A DNA stretch of 64,000 nt from an uncultured Planctomycetia bacterium (GTDB taxonomy: Bacteria > Planctomycetota > UBA8108 > UBA1146). The stretch spans positions 24,491-88,490 of the forward strand of contig CAYPPQ010000003.1 of NCBI GenBank assembly GCA_964412635.1. Reading direction: 5' to 3'. The position numbers and the translations under genes are program-made. Shown here piece by piece: positions 2,604 to 40,228 of this stretch; the first letter of the stretch is position 1; every line of letters begins with the position of its first letter. The notes beneath the pieces are model-generated. The model ran no database searches. It was not told where the DNA came from and saw only the letters and a program-made list of their open reading frames with translations.

Positions 2604-2605
2604 AG

Positions 2606-22018: not shown

Positions 22019-22039
22019 GGGATCCTCCTCTACTTGAGA

Positions 22040-26292: not shown

Positions 26293-28323
26293 TCACTTCT
26301 TTTGATGCAGTTGTAAGTGGTCGATGGAGACGGCATTGAGCGGGTCATTGCGCAATCCCACATGGTAGTCGTGACAGGTGGAGCAACTGGAGTCGATCTC
26401 TTGACCATGACAGTCGGTGCAACGGTCTCGAGTGATCGCCTTCCAGTCATTGCTGTGCTGCGGATCGTTGGCGAATTGATGACAGTCGAGGCAGTTCATG
26501 CTCGATCCTTGAAGTACGTGAGGACGGTGGGAAAAGCGGGTCGATTGCGGGGACGATACGGATCGCATCGACTCTGGTGACCAGTGAACCCGAGGGTTGC
26601 CATACTTCACCCCGAGGTGGCAGGAAGCGCAGTTGCCTGCGGCCAGCGGGCCAAAGACCTGCTCGAATACCGACTCGGAATCCGGGTCTGAACCACCGTA
26701 TCTGGCTTCGATGGTGGCCCATGCTTCGATGAACGGATCAGCATGCTGAACCGGCCTGTAACGAATCGATGGCTCCTCGAAATACCATCCTCCAGCAGTG
26801 GCCCATTTCTCCACATCCACGTTCTTCATCGAGGTATCCGGTTCGTCAGTGGACAGATCTTCATCTTCGGAATCATCGAGTAGAAGATCGTCCTCTTCAT
26901 CCCCGGAATCATCGAGTAGAAGATCGTCCTCTTCATCCTCGGAATCATCGAGTAGAAGATCGTCCTCTTCATCCTCGGAATCATCGAGCAGGAGATCATC
27001 CTCTCCAGCCTCTTCTTGCGTCGATTCCTGGTCTTCAGCGCTGTCCGACCGATCATCCTGCTCCTGTGGAGCAAACCAATCGGAGCTGGCCTTCATCAGT
27101 ACCGATCTGGGCAGCTGTCCTGACAGCTGGGCAATCTGTGAACGATCGAGCCCATCCCGGACGGAAGGGGCGACGAGAGAGCGAGTGAAGAGTTCGAGAT
27201 CGGAACTCAGTGCGTCGGCAACTCCCTCCTTGAAGTGACGGGCCAGTTGTTGCGCTGCCGACAGAACTTCATCGCTTTGATCTTCCAGTGAGTAAAGTTC
27301 CACCGCTGACAGTTGTTCCAGCTTCGAGTTGTCGATCCCTGAACTTCGAATCCAGCGCAGGCTCCATGCGGTGGGAAACTCTGAACCGCCATAGGGCCAG
27401 CTTCCGATGTCCTTTTCCGCCTCAAGAAGTGAACCGGTGTCGAGTGCGGGGATGGAAAGGACCTCGATCCCTTTCTGCTTCCCGGTGGCCTCGTGTCCAC
27501 TGATGGAATCGGCATGGCAGGGCGCGCAGGAAACCTCGAAGGGTTTCACGATCATTCGTTGCTGATCTGGTCCGAGATCATGGCAACCATTACATGAAGC
27601 GGGAGCCAGGTCCGGAAATTCATCGAAGTGCTTTTTGGCGTGGTCGGCATGGTCGAAAATGATTGCTCGCTCCGGTTGACCAAAACTACTGCTGAACTCC
27701 GGGTGACCATCGGACAGCGAAGCGAATCGCTGCTGGTGACACGATTGACAGCTCGAGTCGGAGACCTGCGTCACAGGATCGCTGGGATGGTGTTCCCCAT
27801 GACAGCGAGCGCAGGCAACATCTTGAACCGGAGTTGCCGTTGCGGGGGAACCGTTGAATAGCGACTTCAGATGGTCAGGAGATACTGAATGAGGATCTCC
27901 CCCGAATTCTCCGAGGTCGTGGCATTCGAGGCACTTCATCGAGGCATGGGGATCTCCCTGCCCCATCACTCCTCGGCGAACAAACTCCATCGATGCCATT
28001 TCCACCGGCTGATGGCAATCGGCACAACTGAGATGTGCATGAAAGGAACTCAGCGAGCCAGGGTCGACTAACGATTCATCGTTTCCGGAGATGGCCATCA
28101 TGACGAGACCGCAGGTCAGCAAGACTGCTCTTCGAAAGTACTTTTGCCGTGTCTTTCCCTCGCTGGGCACGGGGATACATGGAGATTCGGCATCGGGGCA
28201 GCGACCGCTCGGTGACGGACCGGCGCAACACTGACCATCCCTGTTGCCGCACTGATAGGGTTGATCAGGGCGGAGGTAGTTGACGAATCGAGCATCGAAA
28301 GGGCTGCGCTTCTCCCGCATCAT
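26293..28323 (-). CDS. Decaheme c-type cytochrome with an internal acidic (DDLLLDDSEDEE)x4 repeat
   Basis: Ten CxxCH motifs: CADCH, CLECH, CARCH, CQSCH, CNGCH, CAPCH, CASCH, CLDCH, CTDCH, CSTCH. N-terminal hydrophobic anchor YFRRAVLLTCGLVMMAI. Last gene of the operon; its start overlaps the upstream stop (ATGA). Confidence 0.8.
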   Translation of the reverse strand: MMREKRSPFDARFVNYLRPDQPYQCGNRDGQCCAGPSPSGRCPDAESPCIPVPSEGKTRQKYFRRAVLLTCGLVMMAISGNDESLVDPGSLSSFHAHLSCADCHQPVEMASMEFVRRGVMGQGDPHASMKCLECHDLGEFGGDPHSVSPDHLKSLFNGSPATATPVQDVACARCHGEHHPSDPVTQVSDSSCQSCHQQRFASLSDGHPEFSSSFGQPERAIIFDHADHAKKHFDEFPDLAPASCNGCHDLGPDQQRMIVKPFEVSCAPCHADSISGHEATGKQKGIEVLSIPALDTGSLLEAEKDIGSWPYGGSEFPTAWSLRWIRSSGIDNSKLEQLSAVELYSLEDQSDEVLSAAQQLARHFKEGVADALSSDLELFTRSLVAPSVRDGLDRSQIAQLSGQLPRSVLMKASSDWFAPQEQDDRSDSAEDQESTQEEAGEDDLLLDDSEDEEDDLLLDDSEDEEDDLLLDDSGDEEDDLLLDDSEDEDLSTDEPDTSMKNVDVEKWATAGGWYFEEPSIRYRPVQHADPFIEAWATIEARYGGSDPDSESVFEQVFGPLAAGNCASCHLGVKYGNPRVHWSPESMRSVSSPQSTRFSHRPHVLQGSSMNCLDCHQFANDPQHSNDWKAITRDRCTDCHGQEIDSSCSTCHDYHVGLRNDPLNAVSIDHLQLHQKK
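26869..27012. repeat. 4 x 36-bp tandem repeat inside the decaheme cytochrome gene, encoding (DDLLLDDSEDEE)n
   Basis: The unit ggaatcatcgagtagaagatcgtcctcttcatcctc is repeated head to tail with 1-2 substitutions. Confidence 0.85.
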
Positions 28324-29147
28324 ACCCCCGTTCCTGCAGCATATGCGTGAACCAGGATCACGTGTAGCAACACCAGGATTACCAAGGCACCTGTGCCCGG
28401 GAGATGGATCAGCAGCCAGCCTCTCATCCAGAAATGGAGTCGAAGTTGACGATCGAGTGCCGACTTTCTCAGCACGATGTGATGAATCTGTTCCTCGATA
28501 CTGTTGGATTCTTGTTTCGAGAAGTTGCTGTGCCGCGAATAGGAATCTGCCACCGCATCTGGTAGGTACTGGTTTTCCTTGCTCCCCGAGGAGTGGGAGT
28601 TTGCCTTGCTGAACAGGAATGGGCGAAGAATTGACAGATAGACCTTCTCGTATTCGCTGTGAGGTGCTGACTTCCGGAGTTCGATGATCAACGAATCGGC
28701 TTCTTTGACAAGGGAGGCGATCTCATGATCGATCCTTGCAGGAAGAAGATGAATCGACTCCCGCAACGGTTGAGGAATCGTTCTCATCAATATCCAACCG
28801 GTGAAACCGCTCATCAGGATGACGGAGTATCCGATCCAGAGCAGCGATTCAAAGGTGCCTGTCGGCAAACGAAAATCGGTGTGTTCAAGGAAGAAGTAGC
28901 CACTGAGAACTCCCGTAGTCAGGTGCAGCATCAACCAGGTTGAGGTTTTGCCGAGCGGAAGGAAGGGCAACTTCTTACGGATCCCATAGACGCATAGCAA
29001 CACGAAGCTGCCGAGAAGAAACCAGCCACTGGCCCTGGCAGGATCACCGAGGGATCGGTCTGCCTCGAGAATGCAGAAGCGAAAGGCGATGAACGCAACC
29101 ACCAGAAAGATGATCAAGGAAGTGGAAGGAGTCCTCAGGTTGATCAT
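28320..29147 (-). CDS. Integral membrane protein, ~5 TM with conserved His in the helices; candidate di-heme cytochrome b / quinol-interacting anchor
   Basis: ATG 29147 (MINLRTPSTSLIIFLVVAF) overlaps the upstream stop in TGATG, with GGAGG 8 nt upstream. His residues lie in predicted TMs (LMLHLTTG, LLIHLPG, LLHVILVHAY). The function is inference. Confidence 0.55.
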   Translation of the reverse strand: MINLRTPSTSLIIFLVVAFIAFRFCILEADRSLGDPARASGWFLLGSFVLLCVYGIRKKLPFLPLGKTSTWLMLHLTTGVLSGYFFLEHTDFRLPTGTFESLLWIGYSVILMSGFTGWILMRTIPQPLRESIHLLPARIDHEIASLVKEADSLIIELRKSAPHSEYEKVYLSILRPFLFSKANSHSSGSKENQYLPDAVADSYSRHSNFSKQESNSIEEQIHHIVLRKSALDRQLRLHFWMRGWLLIHLPGTGALVILVLLHVILVHAYAAGTGV

Positions 29148-30862
29148 CAGGATCTCCTCCACAAGCGATCGGAAAAATCGCGCTCGCCGAAGTTGACCCT
29201 GTGAAGTGCATCATGAGGACAGGCATTGACACATGCTGGCCCCGAGGGCTGGTCGATGCACAGATCACATTTCGTTGCCCGCAGGATGGGACTTCCAGAT
29301 TTCGAGTCTATGACGGGTCTTCCCCTGGAGTCTTTGATCTCGACCGTGCGGATGTTGTCGTAGGGGCAGGCGTCAACGCATGTCGCGCAACCGATACAGG
29401 TGGAATCCTGGATGACGACGTTACCGCTGGAGTTTTCACGATGAATGGCTCCAGTCGGGCAACCCACGAGACAGACTGGATCGCAACAGTGCATGCATGC
29501 GGAAGCGACCATCAACTGGGCATGTCTTTGCCCCTCCCTGATGAAACGTGGATTCCCATCATGGGTGATGGCGCAGGCTTTGACGCAATCGTCGCAATCG
29601 GTACATCGATCCATGTCGATGACCATCGTCTGATTCCCATTGATGGTTCTGTGATTGACGATGAAATCGAGGAACTCCCGGGAGACATTGAGTTTGTCTC
29701 CGCGCATGCCGAACTCTTCAAGGAGGAGGCTTTCGGAAATGTGGGGAAGGATCAACTCCTTGACCGCTGGAGTGGAGATCATCAAGAGATCAGTAGCGCC
29801 GATGCAGTGCAGGCTGCTGGAAGCGATTGGCGTTTCCCCTGAGTTCTTGGCTTCGATCAGTTCCTTTAGTCCGAAGAGATCTCCGGGTCTCAGGTAGTCG
29901 ACGGTGTCGGTGACCCCTCGACTGTTTCTGGATAATCGTGCAAAGCCGTTGAGTAGCACGTAGATGCCGTCGAGCCTCCAGCCTTTCTTGATGACGAGAG
30001 TCTCCTGATCGAGAATTTTATCTCGGTTTTCCTCTGTTGTTCGAATCCCGTGATTCCAGTTCTCGTTGCCGTGTCGTTCAAAGATGAAAACATCCATCAG
30101 CTTTGATCTGTCGACAGGAGGGATCATTTCAAAGAGCGGGAGGTCAGAAAAGAGGTTGCCCAGAGATCTGGATCTGACTTCTTCTTCGAGGTATTCCCTG
30201 AACATCGGCGATTTCCTGCAGATGTCACGGACCCCTTGCCACCGTAGTTCCAGAACTTCCGTTTTTTCGGCGGTGAAGACGGTGGCTGTTCTCGATGATC
30301 TTCTGAGGGCGGCGATTTCTCCGATCGACCTTCCGATTGGAATCTCTACAGATTTGAACTCCTCGATGAACTGATCGAGGTCGTAGGGAACCAGCCGCGA
30401 TTGTTTGATCACCTCCTTTTCATCGATGGTGGAGGTACTGACGCGATCGACATTTCTCGATTCGGTATGGCTGGAGTTGTTCCACAACTGCGAGAGAGCC
30501 TGCCACCAGGTTCGCTTTGGTGGCGCGCTTCTGGTTTGAAGCTTTTCTTCGCCTGCGGGATCGATGAGGACATGGGTGGAACCAGCCAGGACGAAAAATA
30601 CCGATCCGCCATAGTCACCCTTACGGATGATGATCTCGCCAGGTTGATAGCTGACCAATCGGGCGTCGTTTTTGAGGATGTCGACGATGGTCGCACCACT
30701 GGCTTGAAAGTCAGTGCATGCGAAGGAAAGGGCCGTCCCTGTCAGGGCCCAATCAACCGTCTGGTCCGGGAGTAGTTCATCGCCGAAGGGCTGGTCCCAG
30801 CGTCTCGGGCGATCTACTTTGACTTCCTGTTCATCCATGGCGGGTATTTGTTCCAGGTTCAC
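29147..30862 (-). CDS. Fusion protein: tandem cyclic-nucleotide-binding (cNMP) domains + NrfC/DmsB-like ferredoxin with four [4Fe-4S] Cys motifs
   Basis: Phosphate-binding cassette GEIAALRRSSRTATVFTAE, and a second degenerate cNMP domain. C-terminal CTDCDDCVKAC, CMHCCDPVCLVGCP, CIGCATCVDACP, CDLCIDQPSGPACVNACP. GTG start with an AGGAG upstream, overlapping the upstream stop by 1 nt. Confidence 0.75.
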   Translation of the reverse strand: MNLEQIPAMDEQEVKVDRPRRWDQPFGDELLPDQTVDWALTGTALSFACTDFQASGATIVDILKNDARLVSYQPGEIIIRKGDYGGSVFFVLAGSTHVLIDPAGEEKLQTRSAPPKRTWWQALSQLWNNSSHTESRNVDRVSTSTIDEKEVIKQSRLVPYDLDQFIEEFKSVEIPIGRSIGEIAALRRSSRTATVFTAEKTEVLELRWQGVRDICRKSPMFREYLEEEVRSRSLGNLFSDLPLFEMIPPVDRSKLMDVFIFERHGNENWNHGIRTTEENRDKILDQETLVIKKGWRLDGIYVLLNGFARLSRNSRGVTDTVDYLRPGDLFGLKELIEAKNSGETPIASSSLHCIGATDLLMISTPAVKELILPHISESLLLEEFGMRGDKLNVSREFLDFIVNHRTINGNQTMVIDMDRCTDCDDCVKACAITHDGNPRFIREGQRHAQLMVASACMHCCDPVCLVGCPTGAIHRENSSGNVVIQDSTCIGCATCVDACPYDNIRTVEIKDSRGRPVIDSKSGSPILRATKCDLCIDQPSGPACVNACPHDALHRVNFGERDFSDRLWRRS

Positions 30863-31896
30863 TACTCCTGTTTTACAGATCCCATCTTGTAGTCCTCTTC
30901 CTTTGCAATCAGTGCGTCTATTGCAGAGAGGGTACTGCCATCATTCAGTTTTGCGAAAGCATTCAGCGAAGCCGTGATCTGTTCCGAAGCAGCAGCAATT
31001 GCATCTTGATTCTTCAGACTCATCTTCAGATCGACGATGGCGGTCATCGCCTCCTTGATCTGGGGGTTATCGAGGACTTCATTCACGGCCTTGAGTCTCT
31101 TTCTCAGGAGGCTGAACCGCTTGGCGTTCTTGATCGCGTAAGTCCCCTTCGCCGTTGCGGTGGCCACTGCTTTGAGAACGATTTCCATCTCTGCCATGAT
31201 GCCGATGATGTGGAACAACCTCTGCTTCTCGATGGTTGCGAGTTTGTTTTCTTTGCCCTTGGAGTAGAAGTTGTTGTGGCGAACGATCCCCTGGCTCCAC
31301 GAAACCAGTTCGAACTCACTTCCAGAGGAGTGTTTTCCAGTGTTGACAAGGTCCTCGTGGGGCACGACGTGGCAACTGACGCAGTTCCTGGCGATGCTCA
31401 GTACCATCGATGGTCGTAGCATTCCCGCCGCTTCGGAATCGCTCCAGCGAGTTGCGATCTCTTCATCTGTCTCCTCGCCCTCTTCCTTGTCACTGAACTC
31501 GCCGTGCCGCTTCATCCAGTCCGCAGCAGCCCCGTGACACGATTCACAGGAGATACCGTTGGAGATCAGATGGGTCTTCTCCTCCGACTGTTGAGCGGTG
31601 GCATGACAGTTGATACAGAGGCTTTCTCTGGTGATTCGAGCGATGCCCATCTTCTTGGCGATGGCTTGGCCTTCCTTGCTGCGGTGCACTCCTGTGATGG
31701 ACTCGTGATGTGGAGTCTTTTCCCAGATGCCTCCGGAGTGCTTGTGACATTCGATGCACTCGGCAGGCCCCATCACCTTCGAGGAATCAAAACCGGGGCC
31801 GGTGGGGAGATCTTCCCGCGCCCTCTCGGCTGCACCGAAAGAGATTGCGGTGAGGACAATGGTGATCGCAATAGTAGTGGAGGGTTTTTTCTTCAT
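30862..31896 (-). CDS. Tetraheme c-type cytochrome, secreted or membrane-anchored
   Basis: CIECH, CINCH, CESCH, CVSCH. Signal MKKKPSTTIAITIVLTAISFGAA from ATG 31896; the alternative ATG is 31935. Long alpha-helical C-terminal half. Confidence 0.75.
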   Translation of the reverse strand: MKKKPSTTIAITIVLTAISFGAAERAREDLPTGPGFDSSKVMGPAECIECHKHSGGIWEKTPHHESITGVHRSKEGQAIAKKMGIARITRESLCINCHATAQQSEEKTHLISNGISCESCHGAAADWMKRHGEFSDKEEGEETDEEIATRWSDSEAAGMLRPSMVLSIARNCVSCHVVPHEDLVNTGKHSSGSEFELVSWSQGIVRHNNFYSKGKENKLATIEKQRLFHIIGIMAEMEIVLKAVATATAKGTYAIKNAKRFSLLRKRLKAVNEVLDNPQIKEAMTAIVDLKMSLKNQDAIAAASEQITASLNAFAKLNDGSTLSAIDALIAKEEDYKMGSVKQE

Positions 31897-31941
31897 CCGT
31901 TGTGTTCTCCCTTGATTCGGTCTAACAACATCCATGATGTT

Positions 31942-33225
31942 TCAAACATCCAGAATCACATCAGAGGTTGGTCTCGCCACGCATGTAAGGCAATGTCCTC
32001 GTGAGATGTCTACCTCGGGTTCTTCGTCATACTTTACCTTGCCCTCCTGGAGAGGGACTTCACAGGTTCCACAGTTTCCTGACCGGCAGCTGCTATCGAT
32101 GTGAATTCCGGCTTCTTCCGCCAGCTCCAGTATCGAACTGGTGCCATCCCACAGGAGAGATTGATTGCTGCTGTTGAATCGTATTGTCAACTTCTCGGCG
32201 GATGTAGAGGGCTCCGTCGCTGCCGTCGATTCAGGGGAAGGCTTTTTTCGAGTGGATGCGGGACCAAAAGCCTCCATCAAGATACTGTCGGATGAGACTC
32301 CCGATTTTTCCAGCGCAGGGACAATTGCAGACATCATCGGCGGTGGGCCACAGATGTAATACTGGAGGTCTCCTCCGCCGGTGATCTGGACGAGGCGCTC
32401 GACATCGAGGAATCCGCTGTGGTAGGCAGGATCGTCTGAGGTGAGGTCCTTGCCCTCCTTCTGATGACTGTAGAAGACATGGAGATCCAGATTGCTTCTG
32501 TCGGAGATGAGCTGCTGGATGTGGTCGCGGAATGGATGTTCCTCGCGATTCCTGACAGCATGGATGAAGAAGCACTTTCGATCGATCTTCTCGTTGCAGA
32601 TGGTCTCGAGCATGCTCAACAGAGGAGTGACGCCGATGCCCCCTGCCACGAAGACTGCTGGACGGGGATCGTTGCGGTCAAGGATGAATCGACCTGCAGG
32701 ACTGCTCACCTCGAGTAGATCACCGACGGCGATGCTGTGGTGCAAGTAGGAGGAGCCCTGCCCTGGAGGCGCATCCGGCTGGTCGGGAGGTGGCGGAATT
32801 TTCTTCACGGTGATCTTGTAGAGATTCGCATCCCCGGGGGCACTGGAGAGAGAATAGTTGCGGATGGTGGGTTTGGTTTGCCCGGGGATTCGAAACTGAA
32901 ATCCGAGGTGCTGTCCCGGTTCAAAACTGGGTAACGCTTCGCCATCGATGGGTCGAATCAAGAAGGAACAGATGTCATCTGCCTCTGGCAACTTTTCCTC
33001 GAGAATGAAACGGCGATAGCCGCGCCATGCTCTACTCGACTTTGGTGTGCCGGAAGAAACAGGAACTTGTTCGAGTTCCTCCTGCAATTTCACTGCAGAG
33101 AGTTCCATCAACTGGTTGGTTTTCTTGAACGCGATGATGGAAGAGAACATCGAGAACAAGGCCTCCAGCAGGACCAGGAGTACGATTCCTGATCCGATCC
33201 AGAAAATGATTTCGGCGGCATTCAA
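31942..33225 (-). CDS. Membrane-anchored ferredoxin-NAD(P)+ reductase-like oxidoreductase with C-terminal plant-type 2Fe-2S domain (PDR/VanB-like architecture)
   Basis: N-terminal TM IIFWIGSGIVLLVLLEALF. FAD motif RNYSLSS. NAD(P) motif AVFVAGGIGVTPLLSML. C-terminal CRSGNCGTCE...C. TTG start. Confidence 0.8.
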   Translation of the reverse strand: MNAAEIIFWIGSGIVLLVLLEALFSMFSSIIAFKKTNQLMELSAVKLQEELEQVPVSSGTPKSSRAWRGYRRFILEEKLPEADDICSFLIRPIDGEALPSFEPGQHLGFQFRIPGQTKPTIRNYSLSSAPGDANLYKITVKKIPPPPDQPDAPPGQGSSYLHHSIAVGDLLEVSSPAGRFILDRNDPRPAVFVAGGIGVTPLLSMLETICNEKIDRKCFFIHAVRNREEHPFRDHIQQLISDRSNLDLHVFYSHQKEGKDLTSDDPAYHSGFLDVERLVQITGGGDLQYYICGPPPMMSAIVPALEKSGVSSDSILMEAFGPASTRKKPSPESTAATEPSTSAEKLTIRFNSSNQSLLWDGTSSILELAEEAGIHIDSSCRSGNCGTCEVPLQEGKVKYDEEPEVDISRGHCLTCVARPTSDVILDV

Positions 33226-33228
33226 TCG

Positions 33229-34671
33229 TCAGAACCTCACCAGAAACTCGGTTCGAATCCCATTGTTGGTGGCACCGCCCTCGTCCATCTTCGTGTAGCC
33301 ATCGCATTGCAGCATCACTCTATTCGAGAGTTTTTCCTGGAATCGGATTCCCACCGCTCCCGAAGCGGGGTCACTTCCCTCCGTCGGTGTTCTTCCACCC
33401 AGTTCGACGATGAAGTTACGTTCTCCTCCGGAAAGGACCCACTGGTAGCCGACTGCGCCGCCGAAGGAGCGATCTGCTCGATTGCCCAGTGCTGGCTTGA
33501 AACTGCCCAGTCCTGCCGCAGCGAAGAGGATGCCGGCCTTGCCCAGGGGACCACCCTTGGCCGGTGATCTTCCCGCTGAGGAGAACTCATCGATGCCGAG
33601 GAAGAGAGTGCCGTAGGCGTTGTCATCGGTCCCAAAAGGAGTGGTCGATGCTTCGGCGAAGAACAGCATCCCGTCACTGACCTGAGCGTTGTCCGCTTCC
33701 GATGCGGATGAAGCACACCAGCGAATTGTAGTGTTGAAGGTGCGCCCCCATTTCTTGATCCGTTGCGATGATCCGAGTCCAGCGAAGATCCCATCACCTC
33801 CCTGGTCGATCGGCGCAGTGACGGCGACGAGATCGGCATCGATGGTACTGGCGTAGGTGTCGGTCTCGGTGGAAATCCCGAACAACCTCGACTGTGTGGC
33901 AAGCTTGTTGTCATCGCGGTGCAGCTGTCCCCAGCCATAGATCATGGTGAGGCGCATATTGGACGCACCAGTGAAGGGGATGAAACGAGTGACTCCGAAA
34001 GCGTCCATGTTGTCGTTGACCAGGATGCCATCTTGCAGATCAACACCCCATCTGCCGAAACTGAAACCGTAATCGAGTTTCTTGTTTCCGGCCGGATCAA
34101 TTCGAGGGAACAACTCGCTGAGTTCTCCTTCGAAGAAGAAGGTGGTCAACTCGAGGCTGGTGTTGTCGTTCCAACCTTCGTTGGCTTCCGGTTCGATGGT
34201 GTAGCCGGTGAACTGGCCCTGGTCCTGAAGCGGTTGAAGTCCAACAAGAATTCTCTCGGTACCGGTGAATTGCAGGTTCGCAAAGAGATCGATGCGATTG
34301 GCCCATTCGATCTTCCGGTTGTCGTTCCCGGAGGGGTCGATGACGTTGATGCCGGTTCGTAGATTTCCGTAGACCCACAACGACGGTCGCCAGACAGCAC
34401 CGGTGGGAATGTCAAAGCCTCGCTCCAGTCGACCGGTGTCGAGAAAACCTGGACCCAGTTCCAGTAACGGTGGAGTCGGCTCGATCTGATCCTCGGGGAT
34501 CAGCGGGATGGGGTGATCTGGAAGTCTGCTGGGACTCTCTTCTTGCTGCGATAAGCCTTGCTGGCTGAAGAGGAGGAGTACCCCGCACAGGATCGTCACC
34601 TGCAGGCGCTGGAAGGGGGAAGAACTGCTCCACCCAGGAGATCTGGCGGGTTGGATCTGCACTGGATTCAA
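33229..34671 (-). CDS. Putative outer-membrane beta-barrel protein (porin-like) co-transcribed with multiheme cytochromes
   Basis: 480 aa. N-terminal signal-like LQVTILCGVLLLFSQQGLSQQ. Alternating amphipathic beta-strand pattern throughout. The C-terminus ...EFLVRF ends in Phe. A 4-nt overlap with the pentaheme gene. Confidence 0.5.
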   Translation of the reverse strand: MNPVQIQPARSPGWSSSSPFQRLQVTILCGVLLLFSQQGLSQQEESPSRLPDHPIPLIPEDQIEPTPPLLELGPGFLDTGRLERGFDIPTGAVWRPSLWVYGNLRTGINVIDPSGNDNRKIEWANRIDLFANLQFTGTERILVGLQPLQDQGQFTGYTIEPEANEGWNDNTSLELTTFFFEGELSELFPRIDPAGNKKLDYGFSFGRWGVDLQDGILVNDNMDAFGVTRFIPFTGASNMRLTMIYGWGQLHRDDNKLATQSRLFGISTETDTYASTIDADLVAVTAPIDQGGDGIFAGLGSSQRIKKWGRTFNTTIRWCASSASEADNAQVSDGMLFFAEASTTPFGTDDNAYGTLFLGIDEFSSAGRSPAKGGPLGKAGILFAAAGLGSFKPALGNRADRSFGGAVGYQWVLSGGERNFIVELGGRTPTEGSDPASGAVGIRFQEKLSNRVMLQCDGYTKMDEGGATNNGIRTEFLVRF

Positions 34672-36560
34672 GATCCTTCTCCTTTCGGCGTGGGGATCTC
34701 CACGACAGTGGACTTTTCGGCGACCACCACGGCTCCTTCCACCAGGCGTTCGCCCAGTTCGCGGGGGGACATTCCGTAGTCAAAGCCAACGTGCATCGTC
34801 TGGTGGATCAGATTGACAGGAACTGCCTGGGAGACGAAGCGCGCCTCGACACTGTAGGGGCCGTTCCCTGTCAGCAAATCTGCATCGACATGGTAGCGTG
34901 CGGTTCGGTACCCGAGAGGCTCGATGCCGCGACGGTGTTTTCTCATCCCTTTCGGATGACCGTAGATATTGTTGGGCCTCGATGCCGGTCGGATGAAGGG
35001 AAGAGCCGTCACAGAACTGTTGATGGTGAGGACCTGCTCGCGGTCTCCGCCTCTGATGTTTCTCGACATGAACTTGGACTGCAGGTTGAACAGTTGCTCA
35101 TCTAACTCGATTTCGCCACTGCGGACATAGAGTGAGAAGCTATCCCTGACATCTCCATTTGGATCTCGATCTCCAGAGACGAAGACCACTTCTCCGCCGG
35201 AATCCTTGACCTCGATCTGAACCACGAATAATCGTTCCGCATCGAATCCTGTCGGGAGGTTGTGACCGGTGGTGAGGTTCTTGACATCGATTTCGAGATC
35301 GATCCCGTCTTCGCTGGCATCGGTCACGCGGATGTCGGAGAGGCCGAATCCTCGCTTCAGCACGGCGATTCGTTGCTGCTTGGCCCACTCGAGCAATTCG
35401 AGTTGCTCATCGATGATCGCCCTGGCTGCTTCTCTATCGTCGATTGAGAACCACTCATCGGGGAACTCGAAATCAGCGGGACAGTTCTCCTCGAACTCCT
35501 CGGTTCCCCAACCAGCCTCGACATCGAAGAGGAGCCAACCTGCCAGTGACTTCAACTCGTTCGCCTTCCGGTTGACGGGGAAGATGCCCGGGTGGATCAG
35601 GGAGTAATCAGGGCCGGCGAAGAAATGATTGGTGAGTTTTCGATCGGCGGTTGGATTTCCGTCAACCTCTGCTGCTGGGCCGAAGTTATAACCGCTGGGA
35701 ATGCCCTGCTCCTTTCCCATGTGGCAGTCGTTGCACGTGATCCCTTCCGCTGCGGCAGGGGAGTTTCTGTACTCGCTGATCAGTTCGTGCACCTTGAGAC
35801 CGTTCGGAGCAAAAACCTCGTGACAGCTGCCACAGAAGGCCGAATCTGAGATCTCCGGGAATTTCTCGATCTCGCCATGGATGGCGCGGCCCACATCTTC
35901 ACGATCGGTGTTGACCTTGAAGGTCTTCGGATCGTTGAGGATCCGGGCCAGTTCATCGTTGCCGTTGGGACCCTTGACTGAATCGTAGACATCTCCCTGA
36001 TCGATTCCGAGTCGCCCCGACACCTTTCGGTACGGCGCACTCATCCGATGGCAGGTGACACAGGTGATCCCCTCCCTCGATGCGGGGTGGCGATCCAGGT
36101 TGGAGATGCTGAAGGCTTCTCCCATGTCGGAGCCCACAGGAGCATGACAGCGGAGACAGAAGTCACCATTGGTGCTGCTGGTCCCGGCATTCATGGCGTT
36201 CTGCATCGACATCATCAAGGGACTCAGTTGCGAGTATGCATGTTGTGACACTGACCATTCCCTGTACTGGGTCGGATGACACAGGGCACATTCGTCAGCC
36301 GAGGGGAAGTTGCTCTTGGCAAATATCTTGGCGTGCGCATCGTCCTGGGTTGGTTTCACTTCCGGTGTTTCGGACGCCTCATCGAGAAGGTCGTCATCGA
36401 GGAGGTCATCATCGAGAAGATCGTCATCGAGGAGGTCGTCTTCGACAGGTTGTGGATCGGGGGGCGGATCCTGGGCGGATAATGAATTCAGTGGAAACAA
36501 CATGATGAAGACACTGAAGACGAAACCGCAGAAGAAGAGCCTCTGTAATGGAATGCCCAT
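34668..36560 (-). CDS. Pentaheme c-type cytochrome with N-terminal (DDDLL)n acidic repeat; first gene of the 7-gene redox operon
   Basis: Signal MGIPLQRLFFCGFVFSVFIMLFPLNSLSA, then DDLLDDDLLDDDLLDDDLLDE. CALCH, CLRCH, CVTCH, CGSCH, CNDCH. ATG 36560 with AGAGGTG upstream. Confidence 0.8.
   Translation of the reverse strand: MGIPLQRLFFCGFVFSVFIMLFPLNSLSAQDPPPDPQPVEDDLLDDDLLDDDLLDDDLLDEASETPEVKPTQDDAHAKIFAKSNFPSADECALCHPTQYREWSVSQHAYSQLSPLMMSMQNAMNAGTSSTNGDFCLRCHAPVGSDMGEAFSISNLDRHPASREGITCVTCHRMSAPYRKVSGRLGIDQGDVYDSVKGPNGNDELARILNDPKTFKVNTDREDVGRAIHGEIEKFPEISDSAFCGSCHEVFAPNGLKVHELISEYRNSPAAAEGITCNDCHMGKEQGIPSGYNFGPAAEVDGNPTADRKLTNHFFAGPDYSLIHPGIFPVNRKANELKSLAGWLLFDVEAGWGTEEFEENCPADFEFPDEWFSIDDREAARAIIDEQLELLEWAKQQRIAVLKRGFGLSDIRVTDASEDGIDLEIDVKNLTTGHNLPTGFDAERLFVVQIEVKDSGGEVVFVSGDRDPNGDVRDSFSLYVRSGEIELDEQLFNLQSKFMSRNIRGGDREQVLTINSSVTALPFIRPASRPNNIYGHPKGMRKHRRGIEPLGYRTARYHVDADLLTGNGPYSVEARFVSQAVPVNLIHQTMHVGFDYGMSPRELGERLVEGAVVVAEKSTVVEIPTPKGEGS
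36371..36430. repeat. 4 x 15-bp tandem repeat encoding (DDDLL)n within the pentaheme cytochrome gene
   Basis: The units are catcgagaaggtcgt / catcgaggaggtcat / catcgagaagatcgt / catcgaggaggtcgt. Confidence 0.85.
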
Positions 36561-36794: not shown

Positions 36795-36805
36795 GAGGAG
36801 TAGTG

Positions 36806-38122
36806 ATGATTCCCCGGTTTCCCCGGTTACAGGAAGCCCTTGCTGGTGGTCCACTCTGGCAATTGAGACTATTTGCCATGGTGACGGCGTTCTGCGTCTA
36901 TTTCTCGATGTACGCCTTTCGGAAGCCATTTGCAGCGGGAACCTATTCGGGAGCGGAGTGGGCGACTACCGGTCTGGGACTGAAGACGGTACTGGTGATC
37001 GGTCAGATCTTTGGTTACACCCTCGCGAAGTTTCTCGGCTCTCGAATCTGTTCCCAGGCGACCCGAGAACATCGGAGTCGCTGGTTGTTCGGACTGATCG
37101 TTGCAGCGGAATCCTGTCTGTTGTTGTTCGGAATGTTGCCCGATTTCTTGAAACCTGTGGCGATGTTTCTCAACGGTTTATCCCTCGGGATGATCTGGGG
37201 TCTGGTCGTGCGTTACCTGGAGGGTCGAAGGGCCAGCGAGGTGTTACTGGCCGGCTTGAGCTGTTCCTTCATCATCGCCAGCGGAGTGGTCAAGGATGTC
37301 GGGCGCTGGTTGATGTCCGATCATGGAATTCCCGAGATGTGGATGCCCGCCGCGACCGGATTGATCTTCTTGCTGCCCTTCTGGATCGCCTTGACCCTGC
37401 TCGATCATCTTCCCGAGCCGGACGCGCAGGATCAGCAGGAGAGATCGAAACGCCCCGAGATGGACTCCCACGATCGACGGGTTTTTCTTCGCACCTTTCC
37501 CCTCGGTTTTGCCCTGCTGCTGGTGGTGTACACACTGGTCACGGCATTTCGCGACTATCGAGATAACTTCGGAGACGAGATCCTCACCGAACTGGGATAC
37601 GGCGAGGCGAAGGGGATCTTTTCCAGCATCGAAGTCCCGGTGGCGTTCGTGGTGATCAGCGCACTGGCCCTCTTCAGCCTTGTACCTGGGGGAAGAAGGG
37701 GGTTGCTGGCTCTTTTCGCCATGCTGGGCGCAGGAGCAGTGACGATGTTGGTGTCGACGGAGTTGTTCTCGCAGGGCTCCCTCACCGGCAAGGAATGGAT
37801 GCTTGCCATCGGGATCGGATCCTATCTGGTCTATGTACCCTTCGGCTCGGTCCTCTTTGAACGCATCGCCGCCACCTTGAGGTTCAAGGGAAATGCGGTC
37901 TTTGCCATCATGGTGGCAGATGGCGTCGGCTATCTTGGATCGACGATCCTGCTGATCTATCAGGATCTCGGGTATTCGAGCGATGAGACCTCTGTCAATT
38001 TCATGACGGTCCTGACCCGGGTCACTGCGGTGGTGTGTGTGGTTGGATTTGCTGCTGCGGCGATCTACTTCGATCGACATTACATCCGAGGTCGAGAATC
38101 GACACCCGATGATCAGAAGTGA
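36806..38122 (+). CDS. Polytopic membrane protein, MFS-like transporter fold, family not recognised
   Basis: ~12 predicted TM in two 6-TM halves separated by a charged loop (DAQDQQERSKRPEMDSHDRR). GAGGAG lies 5 nt before ATG 36806. Divergent from the redox operon. Confidence 0.6.
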   Translation: MIPRFPRLQEALAGGPLWQLRLFAMVTAFCVYFSMYAFRKPFAAGTYSGAEWATTGLGLKTVLVIGQIFGYTLAKFLGSRICSQATREHRSRWLFGLIVAAESCLLLFGMLPDFLKPVAMFLNGLSLGMIWGLVVRYLEGRRASEVLLAGLSCSFIIASGVVKDVGRWLMSDHGIPEMWMPAATGLIFLLPFWIALTLLDHLPEPDAQDQQERSKRPEMDSHDRRVFLRTFPLGFALLLVVYTLVTAFRDYRDNFGDEILTELGYGEAKGIFSSIEVPVAFVVISALALFSLVPGGRRGLLALFAMLGAGAVTMLVSTELFSQGSLTGKEWMLAIGIGSYLVYVPFGSVLFERIAATLRFKGNAVFAIMVADGVGYLGSTILLIYQDLGYSSDETSVNFMTVLTRVTAVVCVVGFAAAAIYFDRHYIRGRESTPDDQK

Positions 38123-38131
38123 ATCCTACGA

Positions 38132-40081
38132 TTACCGTGGTGGAATGCTGACCACCGTTGATTTCTCGGCGATCACGATGGCACCATCGACCAGCTTCTT
38201 GGCCAGTGCTCGAGGTGAGAGTCGATAATCGAATCCGACATGCATCGTGTGAACGATCAGGTTCACCGGCACCGATTGAGAGATGAACTGCGTCTTGATC
38301 GAATACGGCCCCGTCCCGGTGAGCGATTCTCCAGCGACACGATATGCGGCAGTTCGATGACCCAGTGGCTCGATGGAACGGTGGTGTTTTCTTACCCCTC
38401 TGGGATGGCCATAAACGTTGTTGGGCCTGGAGGCGGGACGGATGAAGGGGAGGGCCGAGATCGAGTTGTTGGTGGTGAGTACCTGTTCTCGCTCTCCTCC
38501 ACGCACGTTTCTCGTCAGTACTCTGGATTGCAGATTGAACAGCTGTTCATCCAGTGGAATCTCACCGTTACGGACATAGAGGGACAAGCCATCCCTGACA
38601 TCTCCATTCGGGTCACGGTCCCCTGAGATGAAAACGAGGTCTCCTCGTGAATCGGTGACTTCGACCTGAAGAACAAATATCCGCCCGATCTTGTCGGCGG
38701 GGAGATTGTGTCCACTGGAGAGGTTCTTCACGTCGATCTCGAATTCGATCCCCTCCTCACCCGCCGAAGTGATACGGATCTCGGAAAGGCCGAAGCCTCG
38801 CTGCATCATCTCGATCCGCTGTTGCTTGGCCCACTCGAGTAAATCGAGCTGCTCATCGATGATCTCACGTGCGCTGTATCGATCATCGATGGAGTTCCAT
38901 GCTTCGGGAAATTCGAACTCTTCCGGGCAATCGTCTTCGAATTCGTCGGTACCCCAGCCGCTTTCCACATCGAAGAGGCACCATTCGGGAATCGATTTGA
39001 GATCCTGGGCCCGCTTGTTGATGGGGAATACACCAGGGTGGAGGAGGGAGTAGTCCGGGCCTGCGAAGAAATGATTCGTCAACTTCCTGGTGGAAGTCTC
39101 TTCTGCAGCCACCACCGCACCGGGGCCTTGCTGGTAACCGGAGGGGATTCCCTCTGTCTTACCCATGTGGCAATCGTTGCAGGAGATTCCCTGGGCCGCT
39201 GCGGGTGAGTTTCGATACTCGCTGAGAACATCATGAACACGGAATCCGTTCGGCGTCTGGACCTCGTGGCAGCTTCCGCAAAAAGCGGGATCTTCAAGTT
39301 CGGGAAACTTCTCTACCTCAGCGTGAATGTCGCGACCGACATCGTCGCGATCAGTATTTACCTGGAATGATTCTGGATCGCCGAGGACGCGCATCATTTC
39401 GGCATTACCCTGGACACCCTTCACCGGATCGAAGAGATCTCCCCTGTCGATTGCCAGCCTTCCCATGACTTTTCGGTAGGGAGCACTCATGCGATGGCAG
39501 ACGACACACGTAACTCCCTCTCTGGAGATGGGATGTCGTTCGATGTTCGAGAGACTGGAGGGCTCACCGATGTCGGATCCGACGGGCGTATGGCAGCGAA
39601 CACAAAAATCACCGGTTGTGGAACTGGTTCCCTTGTTCAGGGCGATTTGCATCGACAACATCAGCGGACTCAACTGAGAGTATGCGTGCTGAGAAACGGA
39701 CCACTCTCGATATTGCTTGGGGTGGCAACTTGCACATCGGTGTGCCGGGGGGAATTCGTTCTCTGCAAGGAGAAGCGCATGAGCCTCGAGAGAATTGTCG
39801 TCGGATCCCTGGTGGGCAGGTGTATTCTCTGAAGGGTTCTCGGGTGAAGGTTTTTCATCAGCGAGTAAGTCATCATCGAGTAAGTCATCATCGAGCAGGT
39901 CATCATCGAGCAGATCATCTTCCAGCAGATCATCCTCCTCGACAACCGGTGCTGGAGGAGGATCCTGAGAATGGGCCTGCTGTTGTGATCCAAGTTGGTT
40001 CTCTGATGGTCCCGCAAGGATGAAGAGACCGAGCAGGGTCCAGATGAGTGCAGTGTTGTTTGGCGGCTTGCTGGCGGGCAT
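38132..40081 (-). CDS. Pentaheme c-type cytochrome, paralog of 34668..36560, with N-terminal (DDLL)n repeat
   Basis: Co-linear ~70% identity with the first paralog. CASCH, CVRCH, CVVCH, CGSCH, CNDCH. Signal MPASKPPNNTALIWTLLGLFILAG from ATG 40081, with an AAGGA upstream. Confidence 0.8.
   Translation of the reverse strand: MPASKPPNNTALIWTLLGLFILAGPSENQLGSQQQAHSQDPPPAPVVEEDDLLEDDLLDDDLLDDDLLDDDLLADEKPSPENPSENTPAHQGSDDNSLEAHALLLAENEFPPAHRCASCHPKQYREWSVSQHAYSQLSPLMLSMQIALNKGTSSTTGDFCVRCHTPVGSDIGEPSSLSNIERHPISREGVTCVVCHRMSAPYRKVMGRLAIDRGDLFDPVKGVQGNAEMMRVLGDPESFQVNTDRDDVGRDIHAEVEKFPELEDPAFCGSCHEVQTPNGFRVHDVLSEYRNSPAAAQGISCNDCHMGKTEGIPSGYQQGPGAVVAAEETSTRKLTNHFFAGPDYSLLHPGVFPINKRAQDLKSIPEWCLFDVESGWGTDEFEDDCPEEFEFPEAWNSIDDRYSAREIIDEQLDLLEWAKQQRIEMMQRGFGLSEIRITSAGEEGIEFEIDVKNLSSGHNLPADKIGRIFVLQVEVTDSRGDLVFISGDRDPNGDVRDGLSLYVRNGEIPLDEQLFNLQSRVLTRNVRGGEREQVLTTNNSISALPFIRPASRPNNVYGHPRGVRKHHRSIEPLGHRTAAYRVAGESLTGTGPYSIKTQFISQSVPVNLIVHTMHVGFDYRLSPRALAKKLVDGAIVIAEKSTVVSIPPR
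39856..39945. repeat. 6 x 15-bp tandem repeat (tcatcatcgagNaNg) encoding (DDLLx)n in the paralogous cytochrome
   Basis: The sequence shows tcatcagcgagtaag, tcatcatcgagtaag, tcatcatcgagcagg, tcatcatcgagcaga, tcatcttccagcaga, tcatcctcctcgaca. Confidence 0.8.
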
Positions 40082-40228
40082 TACCGATCCTTCGATTTCG
40101 TCTCGCATTCGATGTGGGTCAATTTTGTTATGGAAAATCAGCATAGGTCAAAACGACTGGAAACCGAATGAAATCCATCACGGATACAGATCTCAAGGTA
40201 CAAAAACAGTAGTTCGAGGGCGGAGGAA

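What the first reader, a model, noticed from the sequence alone, without database searches (positions are those of the whole stretch)
26293..36560. Seven-gene operon that looks like an undescribed porin-cytochrome / quinone-coupled electron conduit
On the minus strand, seven ORFs are packed with 1-4 nt overlaps or gaps of 7 nt or less, which argues for one transcript. In order they are: pentaheme cytochrome c (34668-36560); a 480-aa beta-barrel ending in Phe (33229-34671); a TM-anchored FNR-like FAD/NAD(P) reductase with a C-terminal 2Fe-2S domain (31942-33225); a tetraheme cytochrome c (30862-31896); a cNMP-binding protein fused to four [4Fe-4S] motifs (29147-30862); a 5-TM His-rich membrane protein, possibly cytochrome b-like (28320-29147); and a decaheme cytochrome c (26293-28323). 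A multiheme cytochrome beside a beta-barrel recalls MtrAB, PioAB and Geobacter porin-cytochrome complexes. The NrfC-like FeS protein plus membrane anchor recalls the quinol-oxidising modules of complex iron-sulfur molybdoenzymes, yet there is no catalytic molybdopterin subunit here. The dedicated NAD(P)H-type reductase and the cyclic-nucleotide sensor domains are not part of any characterised extracellular electron transfer system that I know. Together they suggest a regulated route from NAD(P)H or quinol to a periplasmic or extracellular acceptor.
Basis: partly seen in the sequence, partly recalled or inferred. Interest (0 to 1): 0.85.

Follow-up and report, generated by a model that had tools for sequence, protein, structure and literature searches.

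The report
Known ptdABCDEFG multiheme cytochrome operon
The seven genes are a real, tightly packed operon, but it was already named ptdABCDEFG in 2023; its function is still untested, and the parts suggest a switchable wire carrying electrons from NAD(P)H inside the cell out to the outer membrane.

Summary
Seven minus-strand genes (26293-36560) encode a pentaheme cytochrome, a beta-barrel, a membrane-anchored FAD/NAD(P)H/[2Fe-2S] reductase, a tetraheme cytochrome, a cNMP-binding protein with 16 invariant Cys (four [4Fe-4S]), a 5-TM protein and a decaheme cytochrome.

It is not undescribed. Elbon et al. (bioRxiv 10.1101/2023.11.21.568154) named this cluster ptdABCDEFG, called it a putative porin-cytochrome complex of unknown function, and reported it in Planctomycetes. 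Three loci in their Table S7 are among the syntenic relatives I retrieved.

What I add:
- PtdE relatives occur in at least 595 species genomes, including soil lineages.
- E-F-G is an invariant core, and A-B moves as a unit.
- PtdF has four invariant His (two H-x13-H pairs), as in di-haem b cytochromes.
- Natural PtdE-PtdF fusions exist.
- PtdE has no Tat signal, so it is probably cytoplasmic.
- PtdG carries a conserved cytoplasmic Cys-rich N-terminus.
- PtdB models as a barrel of about 18 strands, like OprD/AlgE and unlike MtrB.
- An FHA-adenylate/guanylate cyclase gene sits beside ptdC in 17 planctomycete loci.

Best model: cNMP-gated export of electrons from NAD(P)H. The acceptor is unknown. 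The quinol-module analogy is not supported.

The parts
34668..36560 (-). [quoted passage not shown] An alternative GTG start lies at 36566.
   Evidence: It has 5 CxxCH motifs, and 43 of 44 retrieved homologs also have five. The N-terminus has a Sec-type signal sequence. [quoted passage not shown] There is a weak NCBIfam hit to ExtKL at 1e-8, far below that model's cutoff. Six conserved non-motif His are enough for bis-His ligation of all five haems.
33229..34671 (-). ptdB: outer-membrane beta-barrel of about 18 strands, ending in Phe.
31942..33225 (-). ptdC: reductase with an N-terminal TM helix, FAD and NAD(P)H domains, and a C-terminal plant-type [2Fe-2S] domain.
   Evidence: Pfam finds FAD_binding_6, NAD_binding_1 and Fer2. 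The RxYS, GGIGVTP and Cx4Cx2C...C motifs are intact, and the TM helix spans residues 4-32 with KK on its C-terminal side. The best PDB matches are the flavohemoglobin reductase module (3e-47), NqrF, and phthalate dioxygenase reductase over the full length.
30862..31896 (-). ptdD: periplasmic tetraheme cytochrome c, c554-like, with a helical C-terminal half.
   Evidence: It has 4 CxxCH motifs, as do 71 of 78 homologs. It has a signal peptide, MKKKPSTTIAITIVLTAISFGAAE. Pfam finds Cytochrome_C554 at 2.7e-12, and the PDB match is 1BVB at 1.5e-5. Four conserved distal His are present.
29147..30862 (-). ptdE: probably cytoplasmic protein with two or three cNMP-binding stretches and a C-terminal four-[4Fe-4S] ferredoxin domain.
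   Evidence: Pfam finds cNMP_binding and Fer4_11. Sixteen Cys are invariant, in four CxxCxxCxxxC(P)-type groups. There is no Tat motif and no hydrophobic leader. The best PDB matches are the cytoplasmic four-cluster proteins HycB3 (3.5e-18) and HycB.
30272..30334 (-). Phosphate-binding cassette of the first cNMP-binding domain of PtdE (GRSIGEIAALRRSSRTATVFT).
   Evidence: G181, E182, A184, R191 and A193 are invariant in 22 homologs. The family consensus GEIAALxRTPRTATVFA matches the canonical cassette of PKA/CAP-type domains; that comparison rests on my own knowledge. The coordinates were verified.
29189..29635 (-). Four-cluster [4Fe-4S] domain of PtdE (residues 410-558).
   Evidence: The invariant Cys are C420/423/426/430, C456/459/464/468, C489/492/495/499 and C532/535/544/548. 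The coordinates were verified.
28320..29147 (-). ptdF: 5-TM inner-membrane protein, proposed di-haem b cytochrome, with a helical insert between TM4 and TM5 that I infer to be cytoplasmic.
26293..28323 (-). ptdG: decaheme cytochrome c with a Cys-rich N-terminus inferred to be cytoplasmic, one TM anchor, and an acidic repeat linker.
   Evidence: It has 10 CxxCH motifs, as do 72 of 77 homologs. Ten conserved non-motif His allow bis-His ligation of all ten haems. It follows ptdF directly in 68 of 68 loci.
28165..28278 (-). Cys-rich N-terminal module of PtdG (YLRPDQPYQCGNRDGQCCAGPSPSGRCPDAESPCIPVP), placed before the TM anchor at 28084-28137.
   Evidence: The motif C-x(1-3)-GP-x(2-5)-G-x-C occurs before the first haem motif in 64 of 73 decaheme homologs. 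Fifty-three have two copies; the window protein is among the eleven with one. The basic residues just before the TM helix (KTRQKYFRR) indicate that the N-terminus is inside the cell (positive-inside rule).
38132..40144 (-). Second ptdA paralog (5 CxxCH, 670 aa) upstream of the operon.
   Evidence: It is 69% identical to PtdA over 550 residues and has the same Pfam profile. The nearest relative, L010, has the two paralogs in tandem.

Best explanation
This is a planctomycete copy of the ptdABCDEFG operon, a named cluster whose function has never been tested.

Most likely it builds a chain that exports electrons from cytoplasmic NAD(P)H across both membranes. The proposed steps are:
1. PtdC, anchored in the membrane with its FAD and [2Fe-2S] domains in the cytoplasm, oxidises NAD(P)H.
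2. PtdE, a cytoplasmic wire of four [4Fe-4S] clusters, passes the electrons on. Its cNMP-binding domains act as an on/off gate.
3. PtdF carries them across the inner membrane on two b-haems held by two H-x13-H pairs.
4. PtdG (ten haems, tethered by one TM helix and a cytoplasmic Cys-rich head), PtdD (four haems) and PtdA (five haems) relay them through the periplasm.
5. PtdA works together with the PtdB barrel at the outer membrane.

Shown here: the identity of the operon, cofactor motifs that are intact and conserved, the conserved gene linkage, the barrel fold, and the E-F fusions.

Inferred: the direction of electron flow, the b-haems, gating by cNMP, and every protein-protein contact. The final acceptor is unknown. 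Candidates are Fe(III)/Mn oxides or chelates, O2 giving superoxide, or a soluble substrate admitted through PtdB.
For: Identity:
- The preprint describes the same seven proteins in the same order.
- Its Table S7 lists NHDG01000056, FWZX01000031 and QPMH01000006. These are my loci L013, L030 and L015, each syntenic A to G with the window.

Unity of the module:
- F follows E in 77 of 78 loci, G follows F in 68 of 68, and A-B are adjacent in 43 of 43.
- Overlaps or small gaps are found at every junction in the window.
- Five PtdE-PtdF fusion proteins exist.

Cytoplasmic input:
- PtdC has intact FAD, NAD(P)H and 2Fe-2S motifs, with a helix oriented N-terminus out, C-terminus in.
- PtdE lacks a signal sequence, has 16 invariant Cys, and resembles the cytoplasmic HycB-type wires.

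Membrane crossing:
- PtdF has four invariant His in two TM helices.
- It weakly matches DUF4405 and Ni_hydr_CYTB.
- Its best fold matches include di-haem b proteins.

Periplasmic relay:
- The haem counts of 10, 4 and 5 are conserved.
- There are enough conserved His for all-bis-His ligation, which suggests electron carriers rather than catalytic haems.

Outer membrane:
- PtdB is a confident beta-barrel.

Regulation:
- The first cNMP domain has a canonical phosphate-binding cassette.
- An FHA plus class III cyclase gene lies divergently next to ptdC in 17 Planctomycetota loci.

Direction (inference from bioenergetics):
- Moving electrons outward is assisted by the inside-negative membrane potential.
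- Moving them inward to NAD(P)+ at -320 mV would be opposed both by that potential and by the redox gap.
Against: - There is no experimental datum for any Ptd protein. The preprint itself says the function is 'completely unknown'.
- An 18-strand barrel is much narrower than the 26-strand MtrB. PtdA therefore may not span the outer membrane, and the last step could stay in the periplasm.
- In 13 of 36 loci with full flanks, no A-B pair lies within 10 kb of CDEFG. The outer-membrane pair may not be obligatory.
- A quinone site in PtdF cannot be excluded. Its fold relatives CybB, FdnI and HyaC all react with quinones.
- The second cNMP domain is degenerate in this clade (Arg replaced by His).
- The window contains no cyclase gene.
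Confidence: 0.55

Rival explanations
1. Same inner chain, but the end point is periplasmic. PtdB would be a substrate-specific channel like OprD or AlgE. It would admit a soluble substrate (a metal chelate, or an N, S or Se oxyanion) that PtdA reduces in the periplasm. On this reading there is no electron transfer through the outer membrane.
For: - PtdA has a plain Sec signal and no lipobox.
- Its only solved relative, T. tepidum c552, has no assigned function.
- PtdA gives weak hits to ExtKL, a protein of Geobacter's selenite/tellurite-linked ext cluster, and to NrfA-type families.
Against: - PtdA has enough conserved His for six-coordinate ligation of all five haems, and no CxxCK motif. There is thus no obvious open catalytic haem.
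- A strictly adjacent cytochrome-barrel gene pair with overlapping stop and start is the signature of porin-cytochrome complexes.
- Small barrels can hold a haem domain, as in the Cyc2-type fused cytochrome-porins (my own knowledge).
Confidence: 0.25
2. A quinone-coupled respiratory module. PtdF plus PtdG would act like a split version of Geobacter CbcL: a di-haem b quinol oxidase feeding a periplasmic multihaem chain. PtdC and PtdE would merely connect NAD(P)H to the same haems or to the quinone pool.
For: - PtdF's fold relatives are quinone-reactive b cytochromes: CybB, FdnI (20% identity over 124 residues) and HyaC. Some members weakly match Ni_hydr_CYTB.
- The PtdE FeS domain belongs to the same superfamily as the FdnH, NrfC and PsrB beta subunits.
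Against: - No NrfD/PsrC-type anchor is present, and PtdE has no Tat signal. The FeS protein is therefore on the cytoplasmic side, opposite to NrfC and FdnH.
- PtdC and PtdE are retained with F and G in essentially every locus, and E is sometimes fused to F. This argues that the cytoplasmic input is integral to the system, not accessory.
- No quinone-site motif could be tested with these tools.
Confidence: 0.12
3. Inward electron uptake. An extracellular or periplasmic donor such as Fe(II), reduced sulfur or a cathode would be oxidised by PtdA, D and G. The electrons would then be delivered through PtdF, E and C to make NAD(P)H.
For: - Porin-cytochrome systems run inward in iron oxidisers such as those with PioAB or MtoAB (established knowledge).
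- The cluster occurs in chemolithoautotrophs: Nitrospinota (L084), Acidiferrobacter (L028) and Nitrospira (P0260).
Against: - Inward electron movement works against the inside-negative membrane potential.
- NAD(P)+ at -320 mV lies far below Fe(II) or nitrite couples, and nothing in the operon could couple the step to an energy source. This point is inference.
- Most carriers are aerobic heterotrophs: Pirellulales, Chthoniobacterales and Rhodospirillales.
Confidence: 0.05

Closest known systems
ptdABCDEFG operon (Elbon, Stewart and Glass; bioRxiv 10.1101/2023.11.21.568154)
   Same: - The seven proteins, the penta/tetra/deca haem counts and the gene order are the same.
- The operon was already reported in Planctomycetes.
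- Three Table S7 loci (TMED53 NHDG01000056, Tistlia FWZX01000031, Ferruginivarius QPMH01000006) are among my syntenic relatives.
   Different: Nothing differs in kind. My details differ from the preprint as follows:
- PtdE has four clusters, not two.
- The cluster is not confined to saline habitats. It occurs in soil Chthoniobacterales and other soil MAGs.
- This clade has a second PtdA paralog and acidic DDLL repeats.
MtrCAB, PioAB and MtoAB porin-cytochrome complexes
   Same: - A multihaem cytochrome gene lies directly beside an outer-membrane barrel gene.
- A chain of c-haems long enough to cross the periplasm is present.
   Different: - The partner cytochrome is a pentaheme of the c552/ExtKL type, not a decaheme of the MtrA type.
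- There is no CymA/NapC quinol dehydrogenase.
- The input appears to be NAD(P)H, passed through FeS clusters and b-haems.
NADPH oxidase / ferric reductase family (NOX, FRE, STEAP) and the split bacterial Fre-MsrQ-MsrP system
   Same: - The logic is the same: NAD(P)H to flavin to two stacked b-haems across a membrane.
- Two His pairs, each with 13 residues between the two His, sit on TM3 and TM5.
- STEAP4, NOX5-TM and SpNOX appear among the fold matches.
   Different: - PtdF has 5 TM helices, not 6, and does not reach the Ferric_reduct Pfam threshold (1 of 20 members, at E = 0.17).
- The flavin domain is a separate polypeptide with its own 2Fe-2S cluster.
- A four-cluster FeS protein is inserted between the flavin and the haems.
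- The output is 19 c-haems rather than O2 or Fe(III) directly.
Formate dehydrogenase-N FdnH/FdnI and Geobacter CbcL
   Same: - A four-[4Fe-4S] subunit is paired with a di-haem b membrane subunit.
- As in CbcL, a di-haem b domain is coupled to a multihaem c domain.
   Different: - The FeS protein is on the cytoplasmic side and carries cNMP domains.
- There is no molybdopterin catalytic subunit.
- The role of quinone is unknown.
Thermochromatium tepidum pentaheme cytochrome c552 (PDB 5ZE8) and the ExtKL/PHC family
   Same: PtdA aligns with 5ZE8 over three haem motifs and part of the beta-sandwich, at E = 9.7e-12. It also gives a weak ExtKL hit.
   Different: - PtdA is longer (about 630 aa against 435 aa).
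- The ExtKL score is 34 bits against a cutoff of 250.
- The function of 5ZE8 is itself unknown.

Membership tests
ptdABCDEFG operon | Penta-, tetra- and deca-haem c-type cytochromes, as counted by CxxCH motifs | tested here: met
   The counts are 5, 4 and 10. They are conserved in 43 of 44, 71 of 78 and 72 of 77 homologs.
ptdABCDEFG operon | The interspersed proteins: porin (B), FAD/NAD(P) oxidoreductase (C), cNMP-binding 4Fe-4S protein (E) and TM protein (F), in the order A to G | tested here: met
   The barrel model is.
ptdABCDEFG operon | Orthology to the loci the authors list as ptd | tested here: met
   Table S7 lists NHDG01000056, FWZX01000031 and QPMH01000006. These are L013, L030 and L015. 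All seven window proteins hit each of them by tblastn, in the same order.
MtrAB/PioAB/MtoAB porin-cytochrome | A 26-28-strand barrel of the MtrB_PioB family | tested here: not met
   [not shown]
MtrAB/PioAB/MtoAB porin-cytochrome | A decaheme MtrA/PioA-type cytochrome encoded next to the barrel | tested here: not met
   The neighbour is the pentaheme PtdA. Hits to the DmsE/MtrA family model TIGR03508 score 30 bits or less, against a cutoff of 192.
NrfCD/PsrBC-type quinol module of complex iron-sulfur molybdoenzymes | A Tat-exported four-cluster FeS subunit on the periplasmic side | tested here: not met
   Four clusters are present. However, the N-terminus has no twin-arginine motif followed by a hydrophobic region, and it carries cNMP domains.
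NrfCD/PsrBC-type quinol module of complex iron-sulfur molybdoenzymes | An NrfD/PsrC-type haem-free anchor of 8 to 10 TM helices | tested here: not met
   PtdF has 275 aa, 5 TM helices and four invariant His. It gives no NrfD hit.
Ferric reductase domain (NOX/FRE/MsrQ) family | Two bis-His haem sites formed by His pairs on two TM helices | tested here: met
   H75/H89 and H248/H262 are invariant, each pair as H-x13-H.
Ferric reductase domain (NOX/FRE/MsrQ) family | Sequence membership in PF01794 and a six-TM topology | tested here: inconclusive
   [not shown]
Ferric reductase domain (NOX/FRE/MsrQ) family | Actual binding of haem b | not testable with these tools
   This needs spectroscopy of the purified protein.
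cNMP-regulated proteins (CAP/PKA-type CNB domain) | A phosphate-binding cassette with conserved Gly-Glu ... Arg-(Thr/Ser)-Ala | tested here: met
   The first domain reads GEIAALRRSSRTATV. G181, E182, A184, R191 and A193 are invariant. The Pfam cNMP_binding hit is at 5.5e-21. Ligand binding itself was not tested.

The most novel reading that the evidence does not exclude
Ptd is a cyclic-nucleotide-gated, split NOX-like oxidoreductase that spans the cell envelope. It would export NAD(P)H electrons without using quinones, spending membrane potential to do so. Its purpose would be to reduce extracellular Fe(III)/Mn or O2. That would give a molecular basis for reductive iron acquisition, or for the widespread extracellular superoxide production seen in aerobic marine and soil bacteria. 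It would also be the first Fe-S electron wire found to be switched allosterically by cAMP or cGMP.
Probability: 0.15. Interest if true: 0.85.

Novelty: already known. Interest (0 to 1): 0.45.

Why it matters
The cluster is widespread. PtdE relatives occur in at least 595 species-level genomes, spanning Planctomycetota, Verrucomicrobiota, Alpha- and Gammaproteobacteria, Acidobacteriota, Nitrospinota and Nitrospira. The PtdF family has about 3,600 cluster representatives. The preprint reports that ptdAB are highly transcribed in an oxygen-deficient zone.

No protein of the system has been studied. If the model is right, many mostly aerobic bacteria can send cytoplasmic reducing power to the cell surface without using the quinone pool, under second-messenger control. 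That bears on marine iron and manganese cycling, on extracellular reactive oxygen production, and on how electron export is regulated.

Several cultured carriers make the model testable: Tistlia consotensis, Ferruginivarius sediminum, Hwanghaeella grinnelliae, Sneathiella sp. P13V-1 and Candidatus Uabimicrobium amorphum.

As a scan finding, however, it is not a discovery. The operon, its name and the porin-cytochrome idea are already in the literature.

Tried and rejected
- Promoter and terminator scan over 24-40 kb: no more sites than in shuffled sequence, and none informative for a planctomycete.
- Rfam search of 25.5-41 kb at E <= 0.1: no hit, so there is no known riboswitch or leader in the 242-nt region upstream of ptdA.
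- Search for a catalytic, open-coordination haem: A, D and G each have at least as many conserved non-motif His as haems, and there is no CxxCK motif. This gives no support for an enzyme active site.
- Search for conserved neighbour genes across 82 loci: only the FHA-cyclase gene recurs, in 17 Planctomycetota loci plus three looser cases. TonB/ExbBD next to the Sneathiella locus and ResB/CcsA next to the Chthoniobacterales loci are lineage-specific.
- The acidic DDLL repeats as a system-wide feature: rejected, because they are restricted to this marine planctomycete clade.
- MtrB-type barrel, NrfD-type anchor and Tat export of PtdE: each tested and not met.
- Literature searches for another name or a functional study of this cluster: only the one preprint was found.
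- PDB sequence search with PtdG: no match.

Full report
**Observation.** The minus strand between 26293 and 36560 carries seven long ORFs. Translation confirms the motif counts: 5 CxxCH in A, 4 in D and 10 in G, plus two CxxCxxC motifs in E. Pfam and NCBIfam confirm the domains:
- A, D and G hit multihaem cytochrome families.
- C has FAD_binding_6, NAD_binding_1 and Fer2.
- E has cNMP_binding (5.5e-21) and Fer4_11/Fer4_7.
- B and F hit nothing.

The junctions, with negative values meaning overlap, are A-B -4, B-C +3, C-D +45, D-E -1, E-F -1 and F-G -4 nt. A 242-nt region separates ptdA from a divergent gene. The stop of ptdG abuts a convergent aminotransferase gene.

**It is a known, named operon.** A full-text search returned Elbon et al. 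(bioRxiv 10.1101/2023.11.21.568154). [quoted passage not shown] - PtdB is a porin.
- PtdD is a periplasmic tetraheme protein.
- PtdE is a cyclic nucleotide-binding protein with 4Fe-4S clusters.
- PtdF is a ferric reductase-like transmembrane protein.
- PtdG is a periplasmic decaheme protein.

They report it in Alpha- and Gammaproteobacteria, Nitrospirales and Planctomycetes. They compare it to porin-cytochrome complexes and state that its function "remains completely unknown". Their Table S7 lists Planctomycetia TMED53 (NHDG01000056), Tistlia consotensis (FWZX01000031) and Ferruginivarius sediminum (QPMH01000006). I had retrieved these independently as L013, L030 and L015. Each carries homologs of all seven window proteins in the order A to G. 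As the preprint says, PtdA's only solved relative is the T. tepidum pentaheme c552, 5ZE8 (E = 9.7e-12). No other paper in the library uses the name or describes the cluster. The claim "undescribed" is therefore wrong. The window holds one more member of a described but uncharacterised system.

**Distribution and modularity.** PtdE has more than 2,000 full-length relatives at about 40% identity. Carriers include Pirellulales, Chthoniobacterales, Opitutales, Rhodospirillales, Oceanococcus, Acidiferrobacter, Burkholderiales, Holophagae, Nitrospinota and Candidatus Uabimicrobium. Several are from soil, so the cluster is not limited to saline habitats.

In 82 distinct loci, F follows E in 77 of 78, G follows F in 68 of 68, and A-B are adjacent with A first in 43 of 43. 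Among the 36 loci with at least 8.5 kb on both sides of E, the arrangements are as follows (lower case marks the opposite strand):

| Arrangement | Loci |
|---|---|
| CDEFG | 13 |
| ABCDEFG | 9 |
| CEFGABD | 4 |
| cbaDEFG | 3 |
| CDEFGba | 3 |
| baCDEFG | 2 |
| CEFG | 1 |
| DEFGABC | 1 |

The system therefore has an invariant E-F-G core with C and D attached. It also has a mobile A-B pair, which in many Pirellulaceae is not within 10 kb.

**PtdC.** It has an N-terminal hydrophobic helix. The N-terminal side of that helix is acidic or neutral, and KK follows it. It also has the RxYS, GGIGVTP and Cx4Cx2C...C motifs. Its best solved relatives are the NADH-dependent reductase module of flavohemoglobin (3e-47), NqrF, and phthalate dioxygenase reductase over the full length. 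The catalytic domains must face the cytoplasm to meet NAD(P)H.

**PtdE.** Sixteen Cys are invariant in four groups. The domain most resembles the cytoplasmic four-cluster wires HycB3 and HycB. The N-terminus (family consensus RPQRWDxPF) has no twin-arginine motif followed by a hydrophobic region. The first cNMP domain has a canonical phosphate-binding cassette, GEIAALRRSSRTATV, with invariant G, E, A, R and A. The second domain is degenerate in this clade.

A profile search finds 3,597 cluster representatives of very uniform length. One of the hits is P0070, a PtdE homolog of 843 aa. Five such PtdE-PtdF fusion proteins exist. This shows that E and F act together, and that the N-terminus of PtdF is on the same (cytoplasmic) side as PtdE. 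With the basic RKK loop between TM2 and TM3, H75/H248 fall near the cytoplasmic face and H89/H262 near the periplasmic face. That is the geometry of a two-haem transmembrane wire.

**PtdG.** It has ten conserved haem motifs and ten conserved non-motif His. It is also not simply periplasmic. About 60 residues precede a single TM helix, and they contain a conserved Cys-rich motif, C-G-x(n)-C-x2-GP-x3-G-x-C-x(n)-C-x-P. The motif is present before the first haem site in 64 of 73 decaheme homologs, usually twice and once in the window protein. Basic residues before the helix place this module in the cytoplasm. Whether it binds Zn or Fe-S is unknown.

**PtdD and PtdA.** PtdD resembles cytochrome c554. 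Both PtdD and PtdA have enough conserved His for bis-His ligation of every haem. This favours electron carriers over catalytic sites.

**Regulation.** In 17 Planctomycetota loci, a gene encoding an FHA domain plus a class III adenylate/guanylate cyclase domain lies divergently next to ptdC. Three further loci have a cyclase within 10 kb; the window has none. Some PtdE homologs themselves carry an FHA domain. Together with the intact cassette, this supports genuine cyclic-nucleotide control.

**Mechanism.** The most economical reading is an outward chain: NAD(P)H, then PtdC (FAD, 2Fe-2S), PtdE (four 4Fe-4S clusters, gated by cNMP), PtdF (two b-haems), PtdG, PtdD, and finally PtdA with PtdB. The direction is inferred. 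Outward electron movement is helped by the inside-negative membrane potential. Inward delivery to NAD(P)+ would be opposed by that potential as well as by the redox gap. Such a path spends NAD(P)H and membrane potential, which would explain an allosteric gate.

The acceptor is open. The narrow barrel, and the absence of A-B near many CDEFG sets, keep alive the rival in which the terminal reaction is periplasmic. A quinone site in PtdF cannot be excluded.

**Verdict.** The novelty class is "already known": a named operon, never characterised. The system stays moderately interesting because it is widespread, architecturally unusual and experimentally accessible. The details added here turn the published "porin-cytochrome of unknown function" into a specific, testable model. 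Those details are the four clusters, the di-haem signature, the E-F fusions, the cytoplasmic Cys module on PtdG, the 18-strand barrel and the cyclase neighbour.

Noticed in passing
window 38132-40144 (-): There is a second pentaheme PtdA paralog (670 aa, 69% identical to PtdA over 550 residues), flanked by plus-strand genes and so apparently monocistronic. The nearest relative, L010 (Planctomycetota ANT-12), has the two paralogs in tandem at 1944-3887 and 4352-6217.
   Followed up: partly
window 36803-38122 (+): A DUF5690 polytopic membrane protein (Pfam E = 9.7e-122) lies between the two ptdA paralogs and is transcribed divergently from ptdA. It is absent from the corresponding position in L010 and from every other retrieved locus. 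Its function is unknown.
   Followed up: partly
window 36366-36464 (PtdA), 26839-27051 (PtdG) and about residues 70-95 of the PtdA paralog: These stretches hold acidic repeats of the form (D/E)2-6 followed by LL(L), for example EDDLLDDDLLDDDLLDDDLL. They occur only in this marine planctomycete clade: 3 of 45 PtdA and 1 of 78 PtdG by a strict pattern that misses the window's own PtdG repeat. They could be a linker or could bind cations.
   Followed up: partly
L020, L022, L023, L025, L032, L035, L039, L040, L042, L044, L046, L049, L054, L057, L064, L069, L074 (about 0.1-1.2 kb upstream of ptdC, opposite strand): A gene encoding FHA and class III adenylate/guanylate cyclase domains is conserved next to ptdC in 17 Planctomycetota loci. 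L052, L085 and L089 have a cyclase domain gene within 10 kb. The window has none.
   Followed up: yes
P0033, P0057, P0070, P0083, P0103 (proteins): These are natural PtdE-PtdF fusion proteins of 833-854 aa. Because ptdE and ptdF usually overlap by 1-4 nt, some could be frameshift artefacts. However, five separate clusters show the fusion, one of them with 11 member sequences.
   Followed up: partly
L002/L003 14991-19096; L001 16644-21122: The neighbours are lineage-specific. ResB/CcsA cytochrome c biogenesis genes follow ptdG in Chthoniobacterales. A TonB-dependent receptor with ExbB/ExbD/TonB lies about 1.8 kb downstream of ptdG in Sneathiella, after two intervening genes. Neither is conserved across loci.
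   Followed up: partly
window about 44000: G+C content steps from about 0.53-0.57 (10-44 kb) to 0.60-0.63 (44-64 kb). This could be a genomic island boundary or an assembly join.
   Followed up: no
window 19506-22801 and 40229-41860: The wider context is that of an ordinary heterotroph: a sugar-type ABC transporter with a periplasmic binding protein, a short-chain dehydrogenase, a sulfatase, a histidine kinase and a GFO/IDH/MocA oxidoreductase. No molybdopterin enzyme, cytochrome c maturation gene or iron-uptake gene was found among the ten flanking ORFs scanned (19.5-26.3 kb and 36.8-45.2 kb).
   Followed up: partly
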